Assembly (NCBI RefSeq): GCF_006345805.1
Contig: NC_043001.1
Span: 111,724,001-111,788,000, forward strand
Reading direction: 5' to 3'
Length of the DNA: 64,000 nt
From: Octopus sinensis
Lineage: Eukaryota
The notes under the pieces are model-generated. The model was not told the DNA's origin. It did no database searches and worked only from the letters and a program-made list of their open reading frames with translations. Made by a program: the position numbers and the translations under genes. Positions 1-64,000 of the stretch are shown piece after piece; the stretch's first letter is position 1; every line of letters starts with the position of its first letter.

Positions 1-400
1 GAAATATCTGTGTTAGACCGAAAAGAGAAAGGGGAGCTTAAAAGCGAACAAAAATACAGGGCGCTGAAAAGGAAGTATAATATTGAATGAAAGGGCCTGA
101 AAGTGGTAATGGAGGAACTGAAACAGCGCCTCGTTGCAAATAAAGCAAAGATGGTAAGATACGACCATAGAATGAAGTGTTACCACCAGAATAGGTTATT
201 CAGAATAGATCAGAAGAGATTCTATAAAGAAATAAATGGAGAGTGTACAGAAGAAAAGTTGATACCAGATAACATTGAAAGTCAAAGGTTTTGGAGTGAC
301 ATTTGGAGCAAAGACAAGAAGCACAAGAAGGATGCCGGGTGGTTGCAAGAACTGAAACAAACAGTAGTCTGTCCAAAACAGGCGGAACTAGTCATTTCAT
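1..400 (+). mobile_element. Dong/R4-clade non-LTR retrotransposon fragment (region upstream of RT), truncated
   Basis: Frame 1 reads EELKQRL..RY....QNRLF..DQKRFY....FWSDIWS...H...A.WL, a pattern I recognise from R4/Dong ORFs; in-frame stop at 88-90; similarity is lost near 400. Confidence 0.72.
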
Positions 401-3624: not shown

Positions 3625-3807
3625 TTCAGAGATGTACTTGCATAGCAAGTGACCTGATCTGAGACCGCGTGCTGGATCGAAAACAATTGCAGCGTGGAAG
3701 GTGTTTATAAGTCATTTAAGAAACACACAAAAACCGTTAGATTCTAACACAAACGTTTTTTTGTGTTTCTTAAATGGCTTATAAACACCTTCCATACTGC
3801 AATTGTT
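3625..3807. repeat. Asymmetric inverted repeat, probable PLE pseudo-LTR fragment
   Basis: Arms 3682-3737 and 3752-3807 are reverse complements; left arm has an unpaired extension; single-arm relative at ~49200-49380. Confidence 0.7.
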
Positions 3808-12804: not shown

Positions 12805-13029
12805 TTGGGTTGTCCGGAAAATTCGTGCCGATTTATAGTAGCTTACGTCTCGGCTTACCTTCCCAGGCACCTCAATTCTGGAAAGAGGGTATTTTCCAGT
12901 TACAGGAAAGATGGAGACGCATTGTGCAACAAAATGGTTAATATTTGGTTGATTAAAGATGTAACGGCAAGTATTTATTGACCTTTTTCTTTTCATTAAA
13001 AATCGGCACGAACTTTCTGGACAACTCAA
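12805..13029 (+). mobile_element. Mariner-derived MITE (225 bp)
   Basis: TIRs TTGGGTTGTCCGGAAAATTCGTGCCGAT / ATCGGCACGAACTTTCTGGACAACTCAA, TA on both sides; retains transposase 3' end. Confidence 0.9.
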
Positions 13030-13789
13030 TATCATAAACTTTGAAATATCGTTATAATTCTGACATCTTTCAACGATGTTAATGAAAATGACAATGAAGT
13101 GATCATTAACTGAAGAAGAGGAGATCATGCGAGGAAGAAATACAGAGATGTTTCGACTCGTCTATGAAATTTTAAGCATTTCAATTCAAACATGTCGTTT
13201 CCCGACGTAAATGTTACATAAACCTTTAAACGTCGGATTTCAAATATGAATACAGATAATTTTGTTGGTTTCCATTGTGTAGCATGCGAATAAAACAGTA
13301 ATACACACCGTCTACGCGTCTGTAGATGTATTGGTGTGTGTGTGTGTGTGTGCATATATATATATATGTATATATACCACTTCTTAATTTGAGCGGAGGC
13401 AATGCGAGCAGGAACTAAAGGAACATTACTAAGATCCACACACAAGGATCAAACATATACATATATTCATATATTCATTTATATCTACAGAGCGGATATA
13501 AAATCCGACACATCTAAATATAATAATATATATAAATAGATAAAAATCATACAATATATAGAAATATATAAGAATTAGTGTTATATACAAAACACAGTGA
13601 ATTTACGCTTAATGTTATAAAACATTGGTAAATTAAAAATTTAAAGAACATATTATGACATATTAAAATTCCAGAAAAAATATAGAAAAAAAATACAAAA
13701 ATACAAAATTTTTCATCTGTACAGGCCGAAATCTATTAAATTATATATATATATATAGAGAGAGAGATATATATACACATATATAAACA

Positions 13790-14030
13790 AAATTTAGATT
13801 CAGATGAATATGGTACTTAAGTCAAAGGCACCAGAATTTTGCATGGTATTATCCATATAAATCAAATGGGGTGATTATAATCAAAATAAGCAACAAGTAT
13901 ATCCGAGGTAGAGTAGTACAATTGTTTCATGTTACTTCATTTTATTAAACACTGTAAGTATTACATCAGTTTTGAAATGTCGAGCATTCTTCAGCTACTT
14001 ATAGAATTTTCCAGTCAAACGGACAATGCA
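13790..14030 (-). mobile_element. PLE pseudo-LTR fragment related to 27653-28230
   Basis: Shares GAATATGGTAC, GGGGTGATTATAA, AAGCAACAAG and TAGTACAAT.GTTTCAT with the 25.3/28.1 kb arms; adjacent to a TA-rich tract. Confidence 0.7.
13912..13999 (-). ncRNA. Type I hammerhead ribozyme motif
   Basis: Minus strand: AGTAG-CTGAAGA-[long stem II]-GAAAC-AATT-GTA-CTACT; stem I AGTAG/CTACT, palindromic stem III ACAATTGT. Confidence 0.75.
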
Positions 14031-14720
14031 CATTCTTATCTCTATTTCATTTGCCAATATTATAAAGAGGGTAGATATATAGACAGAGAGGTTGATTTCA
14101 TTCTTAAGAACATGATAGTTGTATGTTCACTCTCCGTCTGTAGATTTTATCATTTGGTTTACTTTGTTATTTAGATCTGTCAGTGGGGAGGGGGATTTTT
14201 AGTTGGATGGAGAAAAGAATTTTTTCTATTTATAGATATATCTATTATATATACATATATGTATGTATATATATATATATATGTATGTATATATATATAT
14301 ATATATAATATATATACATATATACATTCATATATATATGCATGTATATATATATATTTATATGTGTGTATGTGTACGTCTGTGTTTGACACCCCCACAC
14401 TACTTGACAACCAGTGTTTGTGCGTTTATGTCCCTGTAACTTAGCAGCCCGGGGAAAACCGATAGAATAAGTAGGTGGCTTTAAAAAAGAAGTACTCGTG
14501 TCGATTCGATTGCCTAAAAATCATGCAAGGTGGTGCCTCAGCATGGCCGCAATCTAAGGGCTGAAACAGGTAAATGATAAAAGATGTTTATGGCTGACTC
14601 GGTAGAACGGTGGATTAAAAGCTATGCAGTATTTTTCATACTCCGAGTTCAAATACCATCGAGGTGCTCTTCACTTGCTATCTTTCCGAATTGTACAAAA
14701 TAAACACTAATAAACAAGTA

Positions 14721-25235: not shown

Positions 25236-25296
<61 letters not shown>

Positions 25297-25327
25297 CGCG
25301 AGAAAGAAGCAACAAGAATGGATAGGT

Positions 25328-25418
25328 TTTTAGTACAATCGTTTCATACAAGGACAGGCTTTATTAAAAGTTGCAAAAATTACAGCATATAAACGTGTCC
25401 CGTACTCATCAGCTAAAA
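25328..25418 (-). ncRNA. Type I hammerhead ribozyme motif (left pLTR)
   Basis: Reverse complement of 27990-28080. Confidence 0.8.
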
Positions 25419-26867
25419 TACATGTGAGTTCTCTAGACATCCTAGTGGTTGAGGCTATACTCATGAAGTAATGTAGATAATTAAGTAACATAAACAGATT
25501 TCCAAAGTTCATTAAAGTTCTTAAAGATGATGTACAGTCTTATCACAGAATTTTAAAAAAGTTTTAATAGCATCACAGAGAAGGTGACCTAATCCACAGT
25601 GCACATATGAATTTCCAGAGATATGAGGAGGGATTACATACTCACAGACGACAAATTTATCCATTGTTAATCACAACGAGGTGGGTCTCAATTCCTGCTT
25701 ATTAGCATTACAGAGAGGGTGAATTAATCCTTTGTATAGATGCACAATTTCCAATGGTGTAGATGTAAATTTCCAGAGAAATGAAGAGGAATTTCATATT
25801 CACAGGCGATAAATTTATCAATGGTTGAACACAATGAGGTAGGTATCAATTCTTGTTATATGATTAGGTATTTGCCACATTAATCACATTACTGCTATTT
25901 ACAAGAGGCTGTAGCTATTTAACTTTTTAAGGCTGAAGGGCTTTCTAGAGATGCAAAGAACAGAAAAGGAAGGGAAGAGAAGAAAAGAGAGAAAATAAAG
26001 GAGGAGGGAGCAAAAAGGGGGGGAGGGGGACTAAAAGAGAAGAGAAAAGGAAAAGAAAAAAGAGAATAAGAAGAGAAAAAGAAAAAGAAAAAAGAGAAGA
26101 AATAGGGAAAGAAGGGAAAAAAAAGAAAAAGAAAAAAGAGGGTTCTAGTTATACAGAAGAATTAGTAGACGGCAAGTCTGGTTTTAATTTACAGGCATCT
26201 AGGAACTAGAGGAGAATATTATTCTTTGACCAGTAAAACAGCTAATTTATTGCTGTTGAAATCAGCTATGAATTTAAAGAGAATCTAAAGAGATAACACG
26301 GTCAGGGGTTTAGGGGTCAGAGGCTAAAATCAAAAGAAAATACATTAGGAAAATCTAAGTATAATCTTATCAAAAAGTCATTAAAATTTATTTATTTATT
26401 TATTCATTATTGTCTTAAGGAGAGTTGCCGTTATTATTCATACATTGACGGACTACAGGTCAAATCTTAGAAGATCATTTACAAGGTGTTAGGGAATTGT
26501 CTATCATATGAAGATAATCATATTATCACCGAGGGAGTAGCCTTATTTATTTAATTTTGAAATAGAATTATGGGGCTTTAGTAACTCATTTTATTTTATT
26601 AAAGTTATGCTACTTAAATTAGATTAAGTTAAGAATTAAAATTAAAAATTACAATTAAGATTTAAAATTAAGATTTAAAATTATGAGTTTGAAATTAAAT
26701 AAAGCCTCAATTAAGCAGCGTATAAGTACTATTCATTTCCCTGTTCTCAAAAAAACTGATGCAGATATAAGGAAAAAGATAACTGTAGTGTGAGAACTCT
26801 TAGTTATCTACTTAAAGCAGTGCTATACTAGTAAAAATCAAGTTATATGATAGATACGAATATTCTA

Positions 26868-27264
26868 ATCATTTAAAATATTTTAAAGTCTTCAATTTAG
26901 CGTGGACACAAACTTGACCTAGTTCGATATGGTTATTCAATAAGTTTCTATGTTTTCTATGCTTTAGAATTTCATACGTCTCCATGGAGCATAGTTGGCA
27001 ACCAACCCTACTTTTTTATACGGAATTGCTCTCCTAACTATTTCCCAATTAAGGTTATAATATTATTATTATTTTTGAGTTCCCAGATTTTGTTTGAAAG
27101 TGTGGTGGTACCAGCTTTATGACGTAATTTAAAGACGAGATGTGATTTCTAACTCTGGCTAGAAAATTAATTGTACATCCAATGTAAAAATATTTGTTAT
27201 TCTCCGTGGATATGGTACATTTATAGATTACATATTTTCCCCGCATAGACCAGGTGCCGGGCAT
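26868..27264 (-). pseudogene. PLE C-terminal GIY-YIG endonuclease, frameshifted
   Basis: VIYKCTISTENNKYFYIGCTINFLARVRNHISS / TTLSNKIWELK / NWEIVRRAIPY / CQLCSMETYEIL...LLN..EL..VCVH. Confidence 0.85.
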
Positions 27265-27989
27265 TTTGATTTATTCTACACTTACACACAGGAGGAACAA
27301 CTTCAGGTTTTGGATTATTCTTGGGTAGATGTCTTAGGTTCCTATTATTTTGATTATCATGAGTATAATTGTCCTTATTGTTATTAATATTTCTATAGTT
27401 GGTGCTGATATCTAAAGTATTGCTATTTTATTGATCCTTCTGTTTCATCATTTAGGTCTAAATCCTACCATGATTTCTTATATTATTGGTAATGTACTAT
27501 TATTGTTAGTCTTTTTATCCGACTGCATATTGTTGTTATAGATATCACTGATATTTTCATTCTCCTTATTTTCTCCATTAGCCTTATTTCTATTATTTCT
27601 ATTATTAACATTATTACTTCTATTAATATCGGCATTGTTATTATTATTATTATGGAAATTGTGCATCTATACAAAGGATTAATTCACCCTCTCTGTAATG
27701 CTAATAAGCAGGAATTGAGACCCACCTCGTTGTGATTAACAATGGATAAATTGTCGTCGTCTGTGAGTATGTAATCCCTCCTCATATCTCTGGAAATTCA
27801 TATGTGCACTGTGGATTAGGTCACCTTCTCTGTGATGCTATTAAAACTTTTTTAAAATTCTGTGATAAGACTGTACATCATCTTAAAGAACTTTAATGAA
27901 CTTTGGAAATCTGTTTATGTTACTTAATTATCTACATTACTTCATGAGTATAGCCTCAACCACTAGGATGTCTAGAGAACTCACATGTA

Positions 27990-28080
27990 TTTTAGCTGAT
28001 GAGTACGGGACACGTTTATATGCTGTAATTTTTGCAACTTTTAATAAAGCCTGTCCTTGTATGAAACGATTGTACTAAAA
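27990..28080 (+). ncRNA. Type I hammerhead ribozyme motif (right pLTR)
   Basis: TTTTAG-CTGATGA(27996-28002)-GTACGGGACA...TGTCCTTGTAT-GAAA(28063-28066)C-GATT-GTA-CTAAAA; all core residues present; predicted cut after 28074. Confidence 0.8.
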
Positions 28081-28229
28081 ACCTATCCATTCTTGTTGCT
28101 TCTTTCTCGCTTATAATCACCCCACATTACTGTATTGTTAAAACAGTATAGTTTTTTTTGGTGCATCTAAGTTAGGTACCATATTCAAGTAAATTCATTT
28201 AAATTAACTTGAATCTTTATTGCTTTTTG

Positions 28230-28825: not shown

Positions 28826-29147
28826 ATTAGAGGAAAACCACCATGTGGACGCCCATATGCTAGAAATAGATCCGCTACGGTCTCACCACCAAGAAATGTT
28901 CTCAAGAAAAATTTAGCAAAACAACCAAAACGTTTTGGTTGTTTTGCTAAATTTTTCTTGAGAACATTTCTTGGTGGTGAGACCGTAGCGGATCTATTTC
29001 TAGCATATGGGCGTCCACATGGTAGTTTCCCTCTAATTTATATATAATACAGTTTTACTGAACCTTCAGTTTTTTTTATGCTAGACCACTGGTGTGAAAT
29101 CGATGTTAATTAAATTAATATCTAATTTCTCACCCTTATTTTTAAAT
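28826..29147. repeat. Spacerless 212 bp palindrome plus ~110 bp one-sided tail
   Basis: Centre 28931/28932; apparently perfect over 28840-29023; tail related to ~48030-48100; TA-rich flanks. Confidence 0.9.
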
Positions 29148-31483: not shown

Positions 31484-31722
31484 ATATCCCACCAATAGGG
31501 TATACGAAAAATTATTTTTCACATGCTACTCAAACATGAAAAGAAATGCTCAATACACACACTCTCTGATACGAGAACTCCTCTGCGATTGACTCCCTAA
31601 GGAGTTAAGGGTCAAGGGGAAAATAATATCGTAGGGATTAATAACGATCCTTGATACAGACATAAGGTCATAAGCTATTGGAGGAGAGCAAAGTTGTTTA
31701 AATAGACTGCAGTATATAAATA

Positions 31723-32280
31723 TTGGGTTGTCCAGAAAGTTCGTGACGATCTTTAAAGGAAAGAAAAAGGTAAATAAATATTTGTCATTACATTTTTAAT
31801 CAACCAAATTTGAACCATTTTGTTGCACAATGCGTCTCCATCTTTCCTTTAACTTGAAAATACCCTCTTCCCAGAACTGAGGTGGTTTCATGGCAAAGAA
31901 TTCATCAAGGTATCTTTTGACGTCATCCAAGGAATTGAAATTTTTACCATTAAGACAATTCTGCAGAGACCTGAATAAGTGGAAATCCGAAGGAGCAATA
32001 TCTGGTGAATATGGAGAGTAGGGTAACACATCCCAGCCGAGCTTCAGCAATTTTTTTCTGGTTCCCAAAGCATCAAGTGCCGAAGAAGAACTTTCTTATC
32101 TTCCATTTTAAAGGGTTACAGAATTAACACGGAACATAAACCTTCTTCCACGAAAAGATAACTTAAACTGTGCTCTACATGGATGTGTAGTCAAATCCTA
32201 TTTTATGGACACAACCATGTTCTAAAATAAGTCAAAAGGTAAGCTACTATAAATCGGCACGAACTTTCCGGACAACCCAA
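31723..32280 (-). mobile_element. Internally deleted mariner (558 bp)
   Basis: TIRs with TA TSD; transposase C-terminus with YSPDIAPSDFHLF; N-terminal MEDKKV..RHLMLW joined to it. Confidence 0.93.
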
Positions 32281-37865: not shown

Positions 37866-38090
37866 CTTTATTTAAAGCAGCAAAAAATTCAACAAAACCT
37901 GTTACTCTGAGTTTCCCGTTGCCGTTCATCGGACAGTTTTTGCTAGAAAAACTGTCCGATGAACGGCAACGGGAAACTCAGAGTAACAGGTTTTGTTGAA
38001 TTTTCTGCTGCTTAAATAAAGCATATTACTCTACCACTGGTATTTGAGTACTCTTTTTTCCACCTTGTTTCACATTAATGTGTTTACTCC

Positions 38091-47240: not shown

Positions 47241-47602
47241 AATATTAGGGAATAAATCCAAACTTACAGGGAAAAATCAGATTTAGGATTGAATCCAATT
47301 TTATAGTAAAATATTATATTATATTAAATTAGAGACAAAACCACTATTAGGCAAATCATACAATGAAAAACTTAAGCCAATACATAAGATTATTTAATTT
47401 ATATAATTTAAATATATAACAAAATTATTAAAAAATAATTAATAATAATATATATATTAATATAACACTACGATTATTTTTTTAATAATTTTGTTATATA
47501 TTTAAATTATATAAATTAAATAATCTTATGTATTGGCTTAAGTTTTTCATTGTATGATTTGCCTAATAGTGGTTTTGTCTCTAATTTAATATAATATAAT
47601 AT
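47240..47602. repeat. ~290 bp near-perfect inverted repeat plus one-sided tail in (TA)n
   Basis: Arms 47311-47439 and 47473-47602; left extension 47240-47310; the arm matches the end of the 33.5-35.2 kb element. Confidence 0.88.
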
Positions 47603-50232: not shown

Positions 50233-51295
50233 TTATTTATGGGAGGACCCAATTTAAGCAAAAATTCTAGTTCTAAATTCTCTCTTAGAGATCAACACAG
50301 TAGTTGTACTATGTATATGTGTGTATGTGTGTGTGTCTGTAATGTAAACCTACGTAGTGGCTCTTCACGCACACATACACACACTCACACACACATACAC
50401 ACACATACGCAAACACACACATTGTAAATTTAACTAATTCTCTATAGATTGAAAATGAGGTCACATATCTAGTTTTGGAATGAATTTCTCTTTAATTATT
50501 ATAGTTGGATGCGGAAAGTTTGTTTTCGCCTTGATAGTATATTTCTTGTGAATAAACTTTTTCGAAAAATTTATTGATATGATAGCAGTCTCCAAGGAAA
50601 TTACGCAATTCACGAATATATCGCAGATCCACTAGTTATTGACTTGTCTAATCTCTAAAACATTATGGATTAATAGAACCTGTAATTAAAAAAATGCAGA
50701 TACATGTACTATAGCAGCACAGAATGTATCATGCAATCAATCATTCCTCAATAAATCAGGAAGATATGGAGGAAGGGACTTGTTCTTCTGTCGACAGTTA
50801 CATCATACACAAGGCTACCTGAAGCTGAAAGAATTGTAGCTGCTAGTCTATTTCTCTAAGACTCATATGTTCTTGGGTTTCGCCTTAAGCATAGATGAAT
50901 TTGTTTCTTATGAATTGTTCTGTAGATTTCCAAGTATCAGAAAAAAATTAGTCTGTTTGTATTCTTCTAAAATTCAGTTAGTTTTAGTTCTGTTGTTTAA
51001 ATCTATTTAAAAATGGCCCCATCACGGACAGTACTAAAATATTATACAAAATGATTTCATAGATCCAAACGTAACTGTGTGGCTAAGAACGTTGCTTTCC
51101 AATCATGTAATCTTGGGTTCAATCCCACTGTGTGACACCTTCGACAACAGTAGAATAAGCGCCAGGCTTAAAATATAAGTACTGATATTGATTTGTTCAA
51201 TTAAACCCCAGAAGCCGGTGAATCAGCATGGCCTCTGTCCAAGGCTGAAACAAAGAATAAAAAAATAATATTAATATATGATCAGTTTCGAACAT

Positions 51296-62106: not shown

Positions 62107-62672
62107 TTGGGTTGTCCGGAAAGTTTCATGCTGATTTATAGTAGCTTACCTTTTAACTTATTTTAGAACATGGTTGAGTCCATGAAATAGGATTTGACTA
62201 CACCTCCATTTAGAGCACAGTATAAGCTGTCTTTTCGTGGAAAAGGTTTATGTTCTTATAACCTGTGTTAATTCTGTAACCCTTTAAAATGGAAGATAAG
62301 AAAGTTCATTTTCGGCACTTGATGCTTTGGGAACCAGACAAAAATTGCTGATGCTCAGCTGGGATGTGTTACTCCACCTTCCATATTCACCAGATATTGC
62401 TCCTTCGGATTTCTACTTATTCAAGTATCTGCAGAATAGTCTTAATGGTAAAAATTTCAATTCCTTGGATGATGTAAAAAGATACCTTGATGAATTCTTT
62501 GCCATGAAACCACCTCAATTCTGGGAAGAGGATATTTTCAAGTTAAAGGAAAGATGGAGACGCATTGTGCAACAAAATGGTTCATATGTGGTTGATTAAA
62601 AATGTAATGGCAAGTATTTATTGACCTTTTTCTTTCCTTTAAATATCGGCACGAACTTTCCGGACAACCCAA
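62107..62672 (+). mobile_element. Internally deleted mariner, same derivative as 31723-32280
   Basis: Same TIRs, same GATGCTTTGGGAACCAGA deletion junction, YSPDIAPSD motif. Confidence 0.93.
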
Positions 62673-64000
62673 TAGTTTTGCTATTTCATTTAATACCCAT
62701 CTGAAAATATTAAAAGTACGAGACAGCTAAAGTATTGATGCCAATTAAAATCTCTGGGCATTTATCTTTATTTTAGTTGTTTACGTAACGCTGTAGAGTA
62801 CTGCAAAACATATCTGTCCATTTTGGTTGAGAATTTAATACATTGGCACGCGTAAACATCTTATATGTGCACACAACATCTTTGAGGGTACAAAATGAGA
62901 AACTAACTGGAGTAGTTTCATCAACGATCGAGTAGTAACGCTTAATGTTCAAGAAGATATAATTTCTCACCTGGTGATTGCTAGCATCCAAACTGCGGCG
63001 CTTTTGATACCTCTTAAGCATGAATTTCGAGTGTTTTATCGCTGTGAAAATGTCTTGTGTATTCTCTTAAGCTTTATATTTTACTTGATTCAGTCGGATA
63101 GCGCTCATGCTGGAGCACAACATTGATATATTTAGTCGAACATATCAACTGCAGTATTTATTTTGAAGTCTGGCGCTTCTCAGCGGGGGTATATTCCGCG
63201 CTGCACACCAATCAAAACTGACGAATTCATTGCAAATATCAGCCTTAATTGTTAATTTAATCACAAATCTCAATGGAAGGCTTTTGTTATACTCCTGCTT
63301 AAAATTTGGTGGCATTGGGTGTGGCAGAATACCTAATACACCAACCACTATATGCCACTGGGGATTATTCGTTCGGTCTCTTTGACAAAAGGGTCGTCAG
63401 CAACCAGCACCTGTTGCCTAGTGCTGGCGAGAGGCAAACATAAAGTACACTGGACCTGTAAACACGTGGTTAGAATGCGACCTTATTGATCACATAAGCA
63501 CGCCTGTGCATCTTATTTTATATATCATTGAGAAAAATTCAACAAAAACACAATTGGTGCAGATGGTATGGTATTCTACTAAATTGATAAACAGTATACA
63601 CACACATACACACAATATTTACACAATACACAATGGATGATTCAAACTAGGAGGTTTCATCATGTGTCTATATATAAATGCTTATATAAATATATATCTG
63701 TATATGCGTGTGCGTATATATGCAAATATATATATATATATGTGTGTGTTGTGTGTGTGTGTGTATGCACGTCTGCCAAAAGTGCGGAAGCACAAGACAA
63801 TATATTCCTTAATACGCAAAAATACGGTTTGTTACGTTTAGAATGCTTTCACTGTACGTGGGCTCCATGGTAGCTCATCTGCAGACAAGTGCAACAAAAG
63901 AATTTTTTCGTTCGATGATAAATGAAGGTCAGGGATTGTGGCCCCACATCCTCTGTTATTGATGTTATTAATATCTTTGGTTTGATAAATTTTGCCATTA

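What the first reader, a model, noticed from the sequence alone, without database searches (positions are those of the whole stretch)
27990..28110. Hammerhead with a polyadenylation signal built into stem II, conserved in a diverged relative
Seen: AATAAA (28043-28048) lies in the enlarged stem II region 26 nt before the predicted cut, and U/GU-rich CTTGTTGCTT follows the cut. The diverged copy at 13912-13999 (minus) has AATAAA 24 nt before its cut and the same CTTGTTGCTT. Stem I covaries (TTTAG/CTAAA vs AGTAG/CTACT) and stem III stays (near-)palindromic. Established: CPSF cleaves about 10-30 nt after AAUAAA, upstream of a GU-rich element. Inference: ribozyme and host poly(A) cleavage sites are superimposed, a possible switch between polyadenylated mRNA and a self-cleaved retrotransposition template. 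I do not know of this being described.
Basis: partly seen in the sequence, partly recalled or inferred. Interest (0 to 1): 0.7.

Follow-up and report, generated by a model that had tools for sequence, protein, structure and literature searches.

The report
Penelope ribozyme carrying a poly(A) signal
This is the predicted self-cutting hammerhead RNA at the end of a known kind of jumping gene (a Penelope-like element), and in one lineage its enlarged stem carries a conserved AATAAA or ATTAAA 16-26 bases before the predicted cut, which likely acts as a leaky polyadenylation signal ending the element's mRNA.

Summary
Observation confirmed. The motif is the pseudo-LTR hammerhead of a Hydra-clade Penelope-like element (RT plus GIY-YIG), a known arrangement. 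The hexamer conservation is real but lineage-specific. A[AT]TAAA lies 14-30 nt before the cut in 26 of 32 families of this lineage (2.1 expected) and in 2 of 65 other hammerhead families. It ranks first among 13,219 degenerate hexamers, with variable flanks. Related elements from metagenomes carry the hexamer just after the cut instead (17 of 42 clusters, 3.4 expected). So signal and ribozyme travel together, but their offset is not fixed. A poly(A) role is likely but not shown: no poly(A) junction was seen, and the 3' UTR holds 11 other such hexamers. Insertions end about 37 or 155 nt past the cut, so a linear RNA ending at the cut or poly(A) site is unlikely to be the template; read-through or circular RNA probably is. 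Probable-RNA contigs show A-to-G changes in the hexamer. The scan noted the same feature in another genome (e1-9965396).

The parts
27990..28080 (+). Type I Penelope-type hammerhead: 6-bp stem I, CUGAUGA core 27996-28002, GAAA 28063-28066, near-palindromic stem III, predicted cut after 28074
   Evidence: sequence; family covariation; constrained fold and self-duplex -7.2 kcal/mol
28003..28062 (+). Enlarged stem II (60 nt) with an apical hairpin
28024..28027 (+). UGUA, candidate upstream poly(A) enhancer (CFIm motif, recalled); also one strand of the apical hairpin
   Evidence: TGTA in 23 of 32 lineage inserts vs 11.2 expected; 20 of 65 others vs 18.1
28043..28048 (+). AATAAA, likely poly(A) signal, 26 nt before the predicted cut; partly paired in the predicted fold
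28092..28101 (+). CTTGTTGCTT, U/GU-rich tract: candidate downstream element and/or determinant of the short insertion end near 28110
   Evidence: TGTT at +9..+35 in 24 of 32 vs 13.1 expected; insertion ends
28075..28229 (+). Tail downstream of the cut, equal to the 5' UTR of the next unit in full-length tandem copies; insertion ends at about +37 and +155, then (TA)n
27653..28229 (+). 5'-truncated main copy of the Penelope-like element
25293..27652 (-). Longer inverted 5'-truncated copy: end of the ORF, 1.6-kb 3' UTR, second hammerhead 25328-25418 with AATAAA at 25365-25360, ending about 37 nt after its cut at (TA)n
   Evidence: (I2)
27055..27270 (-). Frameshifted GIY-YIG endonuclease remnant
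   Evidence: Pfam PF01541 E=3.7e-4, below the curated cut-off; tblastn to the L075 ORF
13912..13999 (-). Hammerhead of a sister family, AATAAA 13946-13941; the element end spans at least 13788-14060
   Evidence: a copy of this family abuts RT-coding DNA 74% identical to the L075 ORF (L032)

Best explanation
The motif is the pseudo-LTR hammerhead of a Hydra-clade Penelope-like retrotransposon, and the A[AT]TAAA conserved inside its enlarged stem II is likely a leaky polyadenylation signal that ends the element's mRNA near the predicted ribozyme cut. Shown: the element identity; the unit layout (cut, about 209-nt 5' UTR, ORF, about 1.6-kb 3' UTR, next cut; 4.63-4.65 kb); lineage-wide conservation of the hexamer; insertion ends at about +37 and +155. 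Inferred: a transcript started in the upstream pseudo-LTR is either cleaved by CPSF within about 10-30 nt of the hexamer, inside the ribozyme core, and becomes the translated mRNA, or reads through because the hexamer is partly buried in stem II. Read-through RNA, or RNA cut at both ribozymes as a dimer and re-ligated into a circle, would be the RT template, primed internally at +37 or +155. Signal and ribozyme would compete kinetically, but exact coincidence of the two cuts is not required.
For: Element: RT YRDD, DKT, RWK, CxCx5C linker, C-terminal GIY-YIG, (TA)n targets, direct and inverted pseudo-LTRs. Conservation: 26 of 32 lineage families vs 2.1 expected, antisense 4; over all families 28 of 97 vs 4.7; 13 of 14 multi-copy families carry it in at least half of their copies; median identity 48%. 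A[AT]TAAA ranks first of 5,384 patterns in the zone and first of 13,219 over the whole insert. It splits 13 AATAAA and 13 ATTAAA with 4 parsimony switches, and the adjacent bases are variable (top-base fraction 0.31 before, 0.41 after). Predicted pairing of the hexamer ranges from 0 to about 1 between families, so pairing alone does not explain it. UGUA upstream and TGTT downstream are each about twice the shuffle expectation. Genome count 21,925 vs 3,778 control. Independent metagenome relatives: hexamer ending within 26 nt after the cut in 17 of 42 clusters (3.4 expected, antisense 2) and 10 of 31 at a coarser level (2.7 expected). The 5' UTR has no such hexamer. Two internal RT start sites and uncut RNA as the dominant substrate were shown in vitro for another PLE (PMC11167929).
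Against: No poly(A) junction among the listed loose ends of 8 contig runs (lists cut, and contigs cannot show ends). No A10 run near the cut in 249 distinct genomic copies and no poly(A)-tailed retrocopy of the window family. The 3' UTR carries 11 other sense A[AT]TAAA upstream, so the mRNA may end earlier. 63 of 65 other hammerhead families lack the hexamer in this zone, and around their cuts sense and antisense hexamers are equally common (17 vs 16 of 65). In the metagenome set AA[AT]AAA (11) ranked just above A[AT]TAAA (10), and the +26 window was chosen. The 32 families share ancestry (15 or 9 lineages at coarser cuts), the lineage boundary was drawn with labels in view, and the switch tree is short and weakly supported.
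Confidence: 0.6

Rival explanations
1. The A-rich hexamer is kept for RNA structure or for binding of the element's own protein (an A-rich strand paired with a U-rich 5' strand, a tertiary contact, or an RT/EN docking site), and only looks like a poly(A) signal.
For: In many families the last four bases pair with a U-rich 5' strand (probability near 1 in L211, L117, L109, L214). Overlapping patterns AT[AT]AAA (22) and AAT[AT]AA (19) also rank high. The PAc hammerhead is protein-assisted (PMC11167929). No poly(A) use was observed.
Against: The hexamer is predicted unpaired in other families (L147, L278, L225) yet unchanged, and no multi-copy family shows a G-C swap in it, whereas stem I swaps freely. 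Its distance from the cut varies from 16 to 26 nt. In metagenome relatives it occurs on the other side of the cut.
Confidence: 0.2
2. Strict switch: CPSF and the ribozyme are selected to cut at nearly the same place and exclude each other, sorting RNA into mRNA or a self-cleaved template.
For: An offset of 16-26 nt puts the expected CPSF cut inside the core in all 26 carriers. CPSF needs the hexamer single-stranded (recalled), and stem III needs a dimer (self-duplex -7 to -8 kcal/mol; PMC4209133).
Against: The offset is not conserved across Hydra-type elements. The hexamer lies distal to the basal stem II pairs in most families, so both folds may coexist. Insertions extend past the cut. Ribozyme mutants did not affect insertion in vitro, and no RNA ends were found at the cut, in another PLE.
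Confidence: 0.12
3. The hexamer acts as DNA, as a TATA-like element about 25 nt before a transcription start near the cut.
For: The pseudo-LTR holds the promoter in Drosophila Penelope (PMC2377424); a putative TATA box is reported in a rotifer pseudo-LTR (PMC3846280); the spacing resembles TATA-to-start distance (recalled).
Against: TATAAA occurs in the zone in 3 of 32 families against 26 for A[AT]TAAA; ATTAAA is a poor TATA match (recalled); the Drosophila promoter is described as TATA-less.
Confidence: 0.05
4. Neutral inheritance of an AT-rich stretch from a common ancestor.
For: The families are related and the genome is AT-rich.
Against: Median identity is 48%, the flanks are scrambled, and the hexamer outranks all other motifs.
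Confidence: 0.03

Closest known systems
Hydra clade of C-terminal EN+ Penelope-like elements (Craig et al. 2021, PMC8557442; includes Hydra-1_Obim)
   Same: RWK, DKT, CxCx5C linker, CxxC and CxH around the EN end, no CCHH, (TA)n targets, sense hammerhead in the pseudo-LTR, inverted 5'-truncated partner copies, one-sided tail.
   Different: Unit of 4.6 kb (published members mostly under 3 kb) with Asn-rich inserts and a 1.6-kb 3' UTR; a tail of about 118 nt instead of 30-40; a 50-70 nt stem II insert holding A[AT]TAAA, whereas the published Hydra hammerheads have short stems II (File S2).
[quoted passage not shown]
   Same: Type I topology, short stem I, enlarged helix II, small palindromic helix III, thousands of dispersed truncated copies, many families per genome.
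   Different: Helix II there is about 6-8 bp; here a 60-nt branched insert with a conserved hexamer. The results and discussion read do not mention a poly(A) signal.
PAc (Poseidon, Anolis) internal RT initiation (Frangieh et al. 2024, PMC11167929)
   Same: Two insertion ends downstream of the hammerhead that define the tail; template extends past the cut.
   Different: Different clade; there the ORF starts inside the hammerhead, here about 209 nt after the cut.
HIV-1 polyA hairpin (PMC2645353, abstract)
   Same: Works-like analogy: AAUAAA inside a hairpin of a terminal repeat, which tunes polyadenylation at the 5' versus the 3' copy.
   Different: No homology; no ribozyme there; function shown there and only inferred here.
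Clec2 3' UTR hammerhead (via review PMC6765202, passage)
   Same: A hammerhead next to a poly(A) signal, able to decide whether a tail is kept.
   Different: There the cut lies upstream of the signal and removes it, like the metagenome relatives here; in this lineage the signal is inside stem II, upstream of the cut.

Membership tests
Penelope-like element (EN+) | Single ORF with RT and C-terminal GIY-YIG endonuclease | tested here: met
   L075 frame of 890 aa with GLYRDD and VIYK...YIG; 273 homologues at E<=1e-20. Pfam gave no hit on the whole frame and a sub-cut-off GIY-YIG hit on the window remnant.
Penelope-like element (EN+) | Pseudo-LTR partial tandems, inverted 5'-truncated copies, one-sided tail | tested here: met
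   L075, L077 and L084 have an upstream direct hammerhead copy; 14 of 30 loci carry the hammerhead on both strands within 3.2 kb; ends at +35..37 (22 of 70) and +148..161 (37 of 70).
Hydra clade | RWK and DKT motifs, CxCx5C linker, no CCHH, CxxC and CxH at the EN end | tested here: met
   Criteria. RIRWK read from the locus DNA, PADKTG and CKCRIKSKC, CQLC and CVH read from L063 DNA.
Hydra clade | Insertion into (TA)n | tested here: met
Hydra clade | Falls within Hydra in an RT phylogeny with reference clades | not tested
   No tree with named references was built; the assignment rests on motifs. Length (4.6 kb) exceeds the usual under 3 kb.
PLE minimal or dimeric hammerhead | Intact core, covarying stem I, palindromic short stem III | tested here: met
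PLE minimal or dimeric hammerhead | Self-cleavage activity | not testable with these tools
   Needs an in vitro assay; published minimal forms cleave weakly.
Canonical metazoan poly(A) site | A[AU]UAAA with upstream UGUA and downstream U/GU-rich tract, conserved | tested here: met
   (motif definitions recalled)
Canonical metazoan poly(A) site | Cleavage and poly(A) addition 10-30 nt downstream | tested here: inconclusive
   Only contig runs were available; no tailed retrocopy.

The most novel reading that the evidence does not exclude
Hydra-clade Penelope elements couple their hammerhead to a poly(A) signal, and this lineage has moved the signal into the ribozyme's stem II. Folding of stem II, CPSF binding and A-to-I editing of the hexamer would then decide between a polyadenylated mRNA and a read-through or ribozyme-cut, circularised template. 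This would be a natural ribozyme-polyadenylation switch and would give PLE hammerheads a concrete role.
Probability: 0.25. Interest if true: 0.75.

Novelty: new variant of a known kind. Interest (0 to 1): 0.48.

Why it matters
The role of PLE hammerheads is still open (PMC8557442 calls it unclear; PMC11167929 finds cleavage dispensable in vitro), and the papers read here do not map where hammerhead-bearing PLE mRNAs end. A conserved poly(A) hexamer tied to the ribozyme gives a directly testable model with two small mutations (hexamer, catalytic G). It would also mean that thousands of dispersed copies (about 18,000 matches above control) seed potential poly(A) sites through this genome. If the hexamer is only structural, the finding is a modest lineage variant of a 2014 motif.

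Tried and rejected
Rfam scan: no hammerhead among the listed hits, only microsatellite-driven miRNA matches. Monomer folding: not better than shuffles. First reading as an endonuclease-only element: rejected, since longer copies encode RT. Neptune assignment: rejected on the linker and DKT/RWK motifs. The U-rich tract as a 3' splice site: no AG follows it closely, dropped. A general rule that all long-stem hammerheads of this genome carry the signal: rejected (2 of 65 in the zone; 17 sense vs 16 antisense after the cut). RNA search: no RNA holder listed on record, only guessed-RNA contig runs; contigs cannot show ends, so the lack of poly(A) loose ends is weak. Poly(A) retrocopy search covered the window family only and gave 1 unrelated hit. 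Cut-to-cut measurement on L075 failed because its second hammerhead differed from the probe; it was redone on L084 and L077. Literature searches listed no paper that describes a poly(A) signal inside a PLE hammerhead. Lunse et al. (PMC5785218) was not held, most subscription papers are not searched, and the Craig supplement was cut when stored (parts 2-3 of 59 read), so a mention elsewhere is possible.

Full report
1. Observation. All coordinates in the finding check out. A third copy of the motif lies at 25328-25418 on the minus strand, in a 360-nt, 99% inverted repeat. Rfam does not call the motif (150 of 160 hits listed), and the monomer folds no better than shuffles. The genome-wide signal is clear, though: the pattern CTGANGA-N40-70-GAAACNNNNGTA has 27,843 matches against 541 for the reversed control. 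Stem I pairs in 86% of cells over 32 related families (34-41% when slid), with several pair types. The stem III segment self-pairs at -7.2 and -7.8 kcal/mol, as expected for the dimer-dependent hammerheads of PMC4209133 (parts 1-2 of 4 read).

2. What it belongs to. The window holds a short plus-strand copy (27653-28229) and a longer inverted copy (27652 to 25293) with a frameshifted GIY-YIG remnant. Longer genomic copies encode RT and endonuclease in one frame (L075, 890 aa). The motifs match the Hydra clade as defined in PMC8557442 section 11; no reference tree was built. L084 and L077 give a cut-to-cut unit of 4650 and 4626 nt, with the ATG at +210 and +209 and a 3' UTR of about 1.6 kb. The sequence after the cut is thus the 5' UTR of the next unit, and the hexamer sits at the far 3' end of a unit-length RNA. 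The sister family at 13912-13999 and two other families of the lineage also abut related RT-coding DNA (L032, L152, L183). The host is probably an octopod cephalopod; this is an inference from genome size, the best named protein hit and Hydra-1_Obim in the Craig supplement.

3. Conservation test. I collected 351 hammerhead matches (249 distinct, 97 clusters at 80%). Sampling: best-match loci of the two window families, and the first listed rows (contig C1 only) of three pattern searches. All 100 rows were taken. From automatic loci each were taken, plus 38 and 13 regions picked by eye as distinct families. Clustering with the hexamer zone removed gave a contiguous group of 32 clusters; its boundary was drawn with hexamer labels in view. 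A[AT]TAAA ends 14-30 nt before the cut in 26 of 32 (2.1 expected from dinucleotide shuffles; antisense 4) and in 2 of the other 65 (2.6 expected). Without any grouping the count is 28 of 97 against 4.7. Median identity in the group is 48%; coarser cuts give 15 or 9 lineages, of which 12 and 8 carry it. An unbiased ranking puts A[AT]TAAA first of 5,384 patterns in the zone and first of 13,219 over the whole insert, ahead of the TGTAAT loop motifs at 18. Carriers split 13 AATAAA and 13 ATTAAA, with 4 parsimony switches on a short, weakly supported tree, and the bases on either side vary freely. Predicted pairing of the hexamer runs from none (L147) to full (L211). TGTA upstream (23 of 32 vs 11.2) and TGTT downstream (24 of 32 vs 13.1) are enriched in the group and little in the others; these counts are not phylogenetically independent.

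4. Outside this genome. A scan of metagenome contigs with an alignment of 21 related proteins gave 78 loci. 61 of them held a hammerhead (57 distinct cores); 7 were dropped as antisense, non-canonical or cut by a contig end. Their stems II are short. The hexamer ends within 26 nt after the cut in 17 of 42 clusters (3.4 expected, antisense 2) and in 10 of 31 at a coarser level (2.7 expected); 4 of 42 have it in the zone before the cut, at about -37, upstream of stem I in the rows. The window was chosen after seeing the data, and AA[AT]AAA ranked one above A[AT]TAAA there. In the published table of Hydra hammerheads (File S2) I count by eye 8 of 25 families with an exact hexamer in the printed flanks, none in stem II, with no control. 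So hexamer and ribozyme tend to lie within about 40 nt of each other in Hydra-type elements, in three different positions. Other hammerhead lineages of this genome show no strand-specific enrichment.

5. Insertion ends. In the window family, microsatellite starts fall at +35..37 (22 of 70) and +148..161 (37 of 70) after the cut; 5 fall elsewhere and 6 have none (loci were chosen by match to a query that includes the tail). Across the lineage 38 of 126 fall at +35..39. No copy has an A10 run near the cut (0 of 249), and no tailed retrocopy of the window family was found. A linear RNA that stops at the ribozyme cut or at the predicted poly(A) site therefore lacks these ends at its 3' end. This matches the two internal RT start sites and the uncut substrate reported for PAc (PMC11167929, parts 1-2 of 4 read). 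A circle made from cut RNA, as proposed in PMC4209133, also fits.

6. RNA. No holder was on record as RNA; 8 contig runs were laid. No poly(A) loose end appears in the listed rows, which is weak evidence. In three of the four runs, A>G (with T>C in two) dominates: X5 has A>G at 20 places and T>C at 15, against G>A 2 and C>T 3; X16 has 19 and 12; X12 has A>G at 15; X4 has 2. Positions 28046-28048 of the hexamer read G in 10-12 contigs of X5. In DNA, 0 of the 100 listed genomic copies (of 1,240) carry G in the hexamer, and 87 genomic alignments show 3 A>G events. This is probably ADAR hyper-editing of fold-back RNA from the inverted copies (14 of 30 loci). It is not proven without DNA from the same individual, and such RNA need not be the element's functional transcript.

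7. Mechanism and rivals. Most likely (0.6) the hexamer is a real but leaky poly(A) signal. CPSF would cut inside the ribozyme core to make mRNA, while partial burial in stem II would allow the read-through needed for templates, working like the HIV-1 polyA hairpin (PMC2645353, abstract only). CPSF, CFIm and CstF motif rules are recalled. The main counter-evidence is the lack of mapped poly(A) ends and the 11 further sense hexamers in the 3' UTR. Rivals: structural or protein-binding role 0.2, strict switch 0.12, TATA-like element 0.05, neutral 0.03.

8. Novelty. Hammerheads in PLE pseudo-LTRs are known, and so is the Hydra clade. Nine searches and word look-ups in PMC2377424 (passages), PMC3846280 and PMC6431247 (passages), PMC6765202 (passages), PMC8557442 (passages, sections 10-11, supplement parts 2-3) and bioRxiv 10.64898/2026.07.22.740005 (part 1 of 5 and passages) showed no description of a poly(A) signal in or beside a PLE hammerhead; coverage is incomplete. 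Earlier notes of this scan report the same feature in another genome, and a signal just after the cut in shark-type genomes; I saw them after my tests and do not count them as evidence. Verdict: new variant of a known kind, interest 0.48.

Noticed in passing
window 27960-28140, runs X5, X12, X16: Strong A>G and T>C excess in probable-RNA contigs, absent from genomic copies: probable A-to-I hyper-editing of both strands, hitting the AATAAA and core positions 28002, 28066 and 28074.
   Followed up: partly
G000: About 27,800 long-stem-II hammerheads genome-wide, in at least 97 sequence clusters in the sample; many lineages look undescribed.
   Followed up: partly
G000:C1:4297863-4299124 (L145) and C1:4621805-4622984 (L127): Hammerheads repeated head to tail about every 400-445 bp, as in non-LTR retrozymes.
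   Followed up: no
L246, L247, L268, L141, L258, L175; L138, L151: Other hammerhead lineages of this genome carry AATAAA at lineage-fixed positions after the cut (+31..36; +12).
   Followed up: partly
L075:2580-5249 (-); window 27221-27666 (-): Two long Asn-rich inserts in the ORF before the endonuclease, recalling the Asn-rich inserts of rotifer Penelope ORFs (PMC3846280).
   Followed up: no
window 25599-25859: Imperfect (about 80%) duplication of about 105 nt inside the element's 3' UTR, present in most copies.
   Followed up: no
window 51172-51279 (+): U6 snRNA-like match, 30.3 bits, below the gathering score of 44; probably a decayed copy.
   Followed up: no
window 3681-3807, 28871-28992, 37883-38006, 47311-47602: Long near-perfect hairpins or palindromes, MITE-like; their miRNA matches are below threshold.
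   Followed up: no
window 31718-32139 / 62256-62677 and 12868-13032: Another dispersed repeat family, 90-93% identical, not characterised.
   Followed up: no
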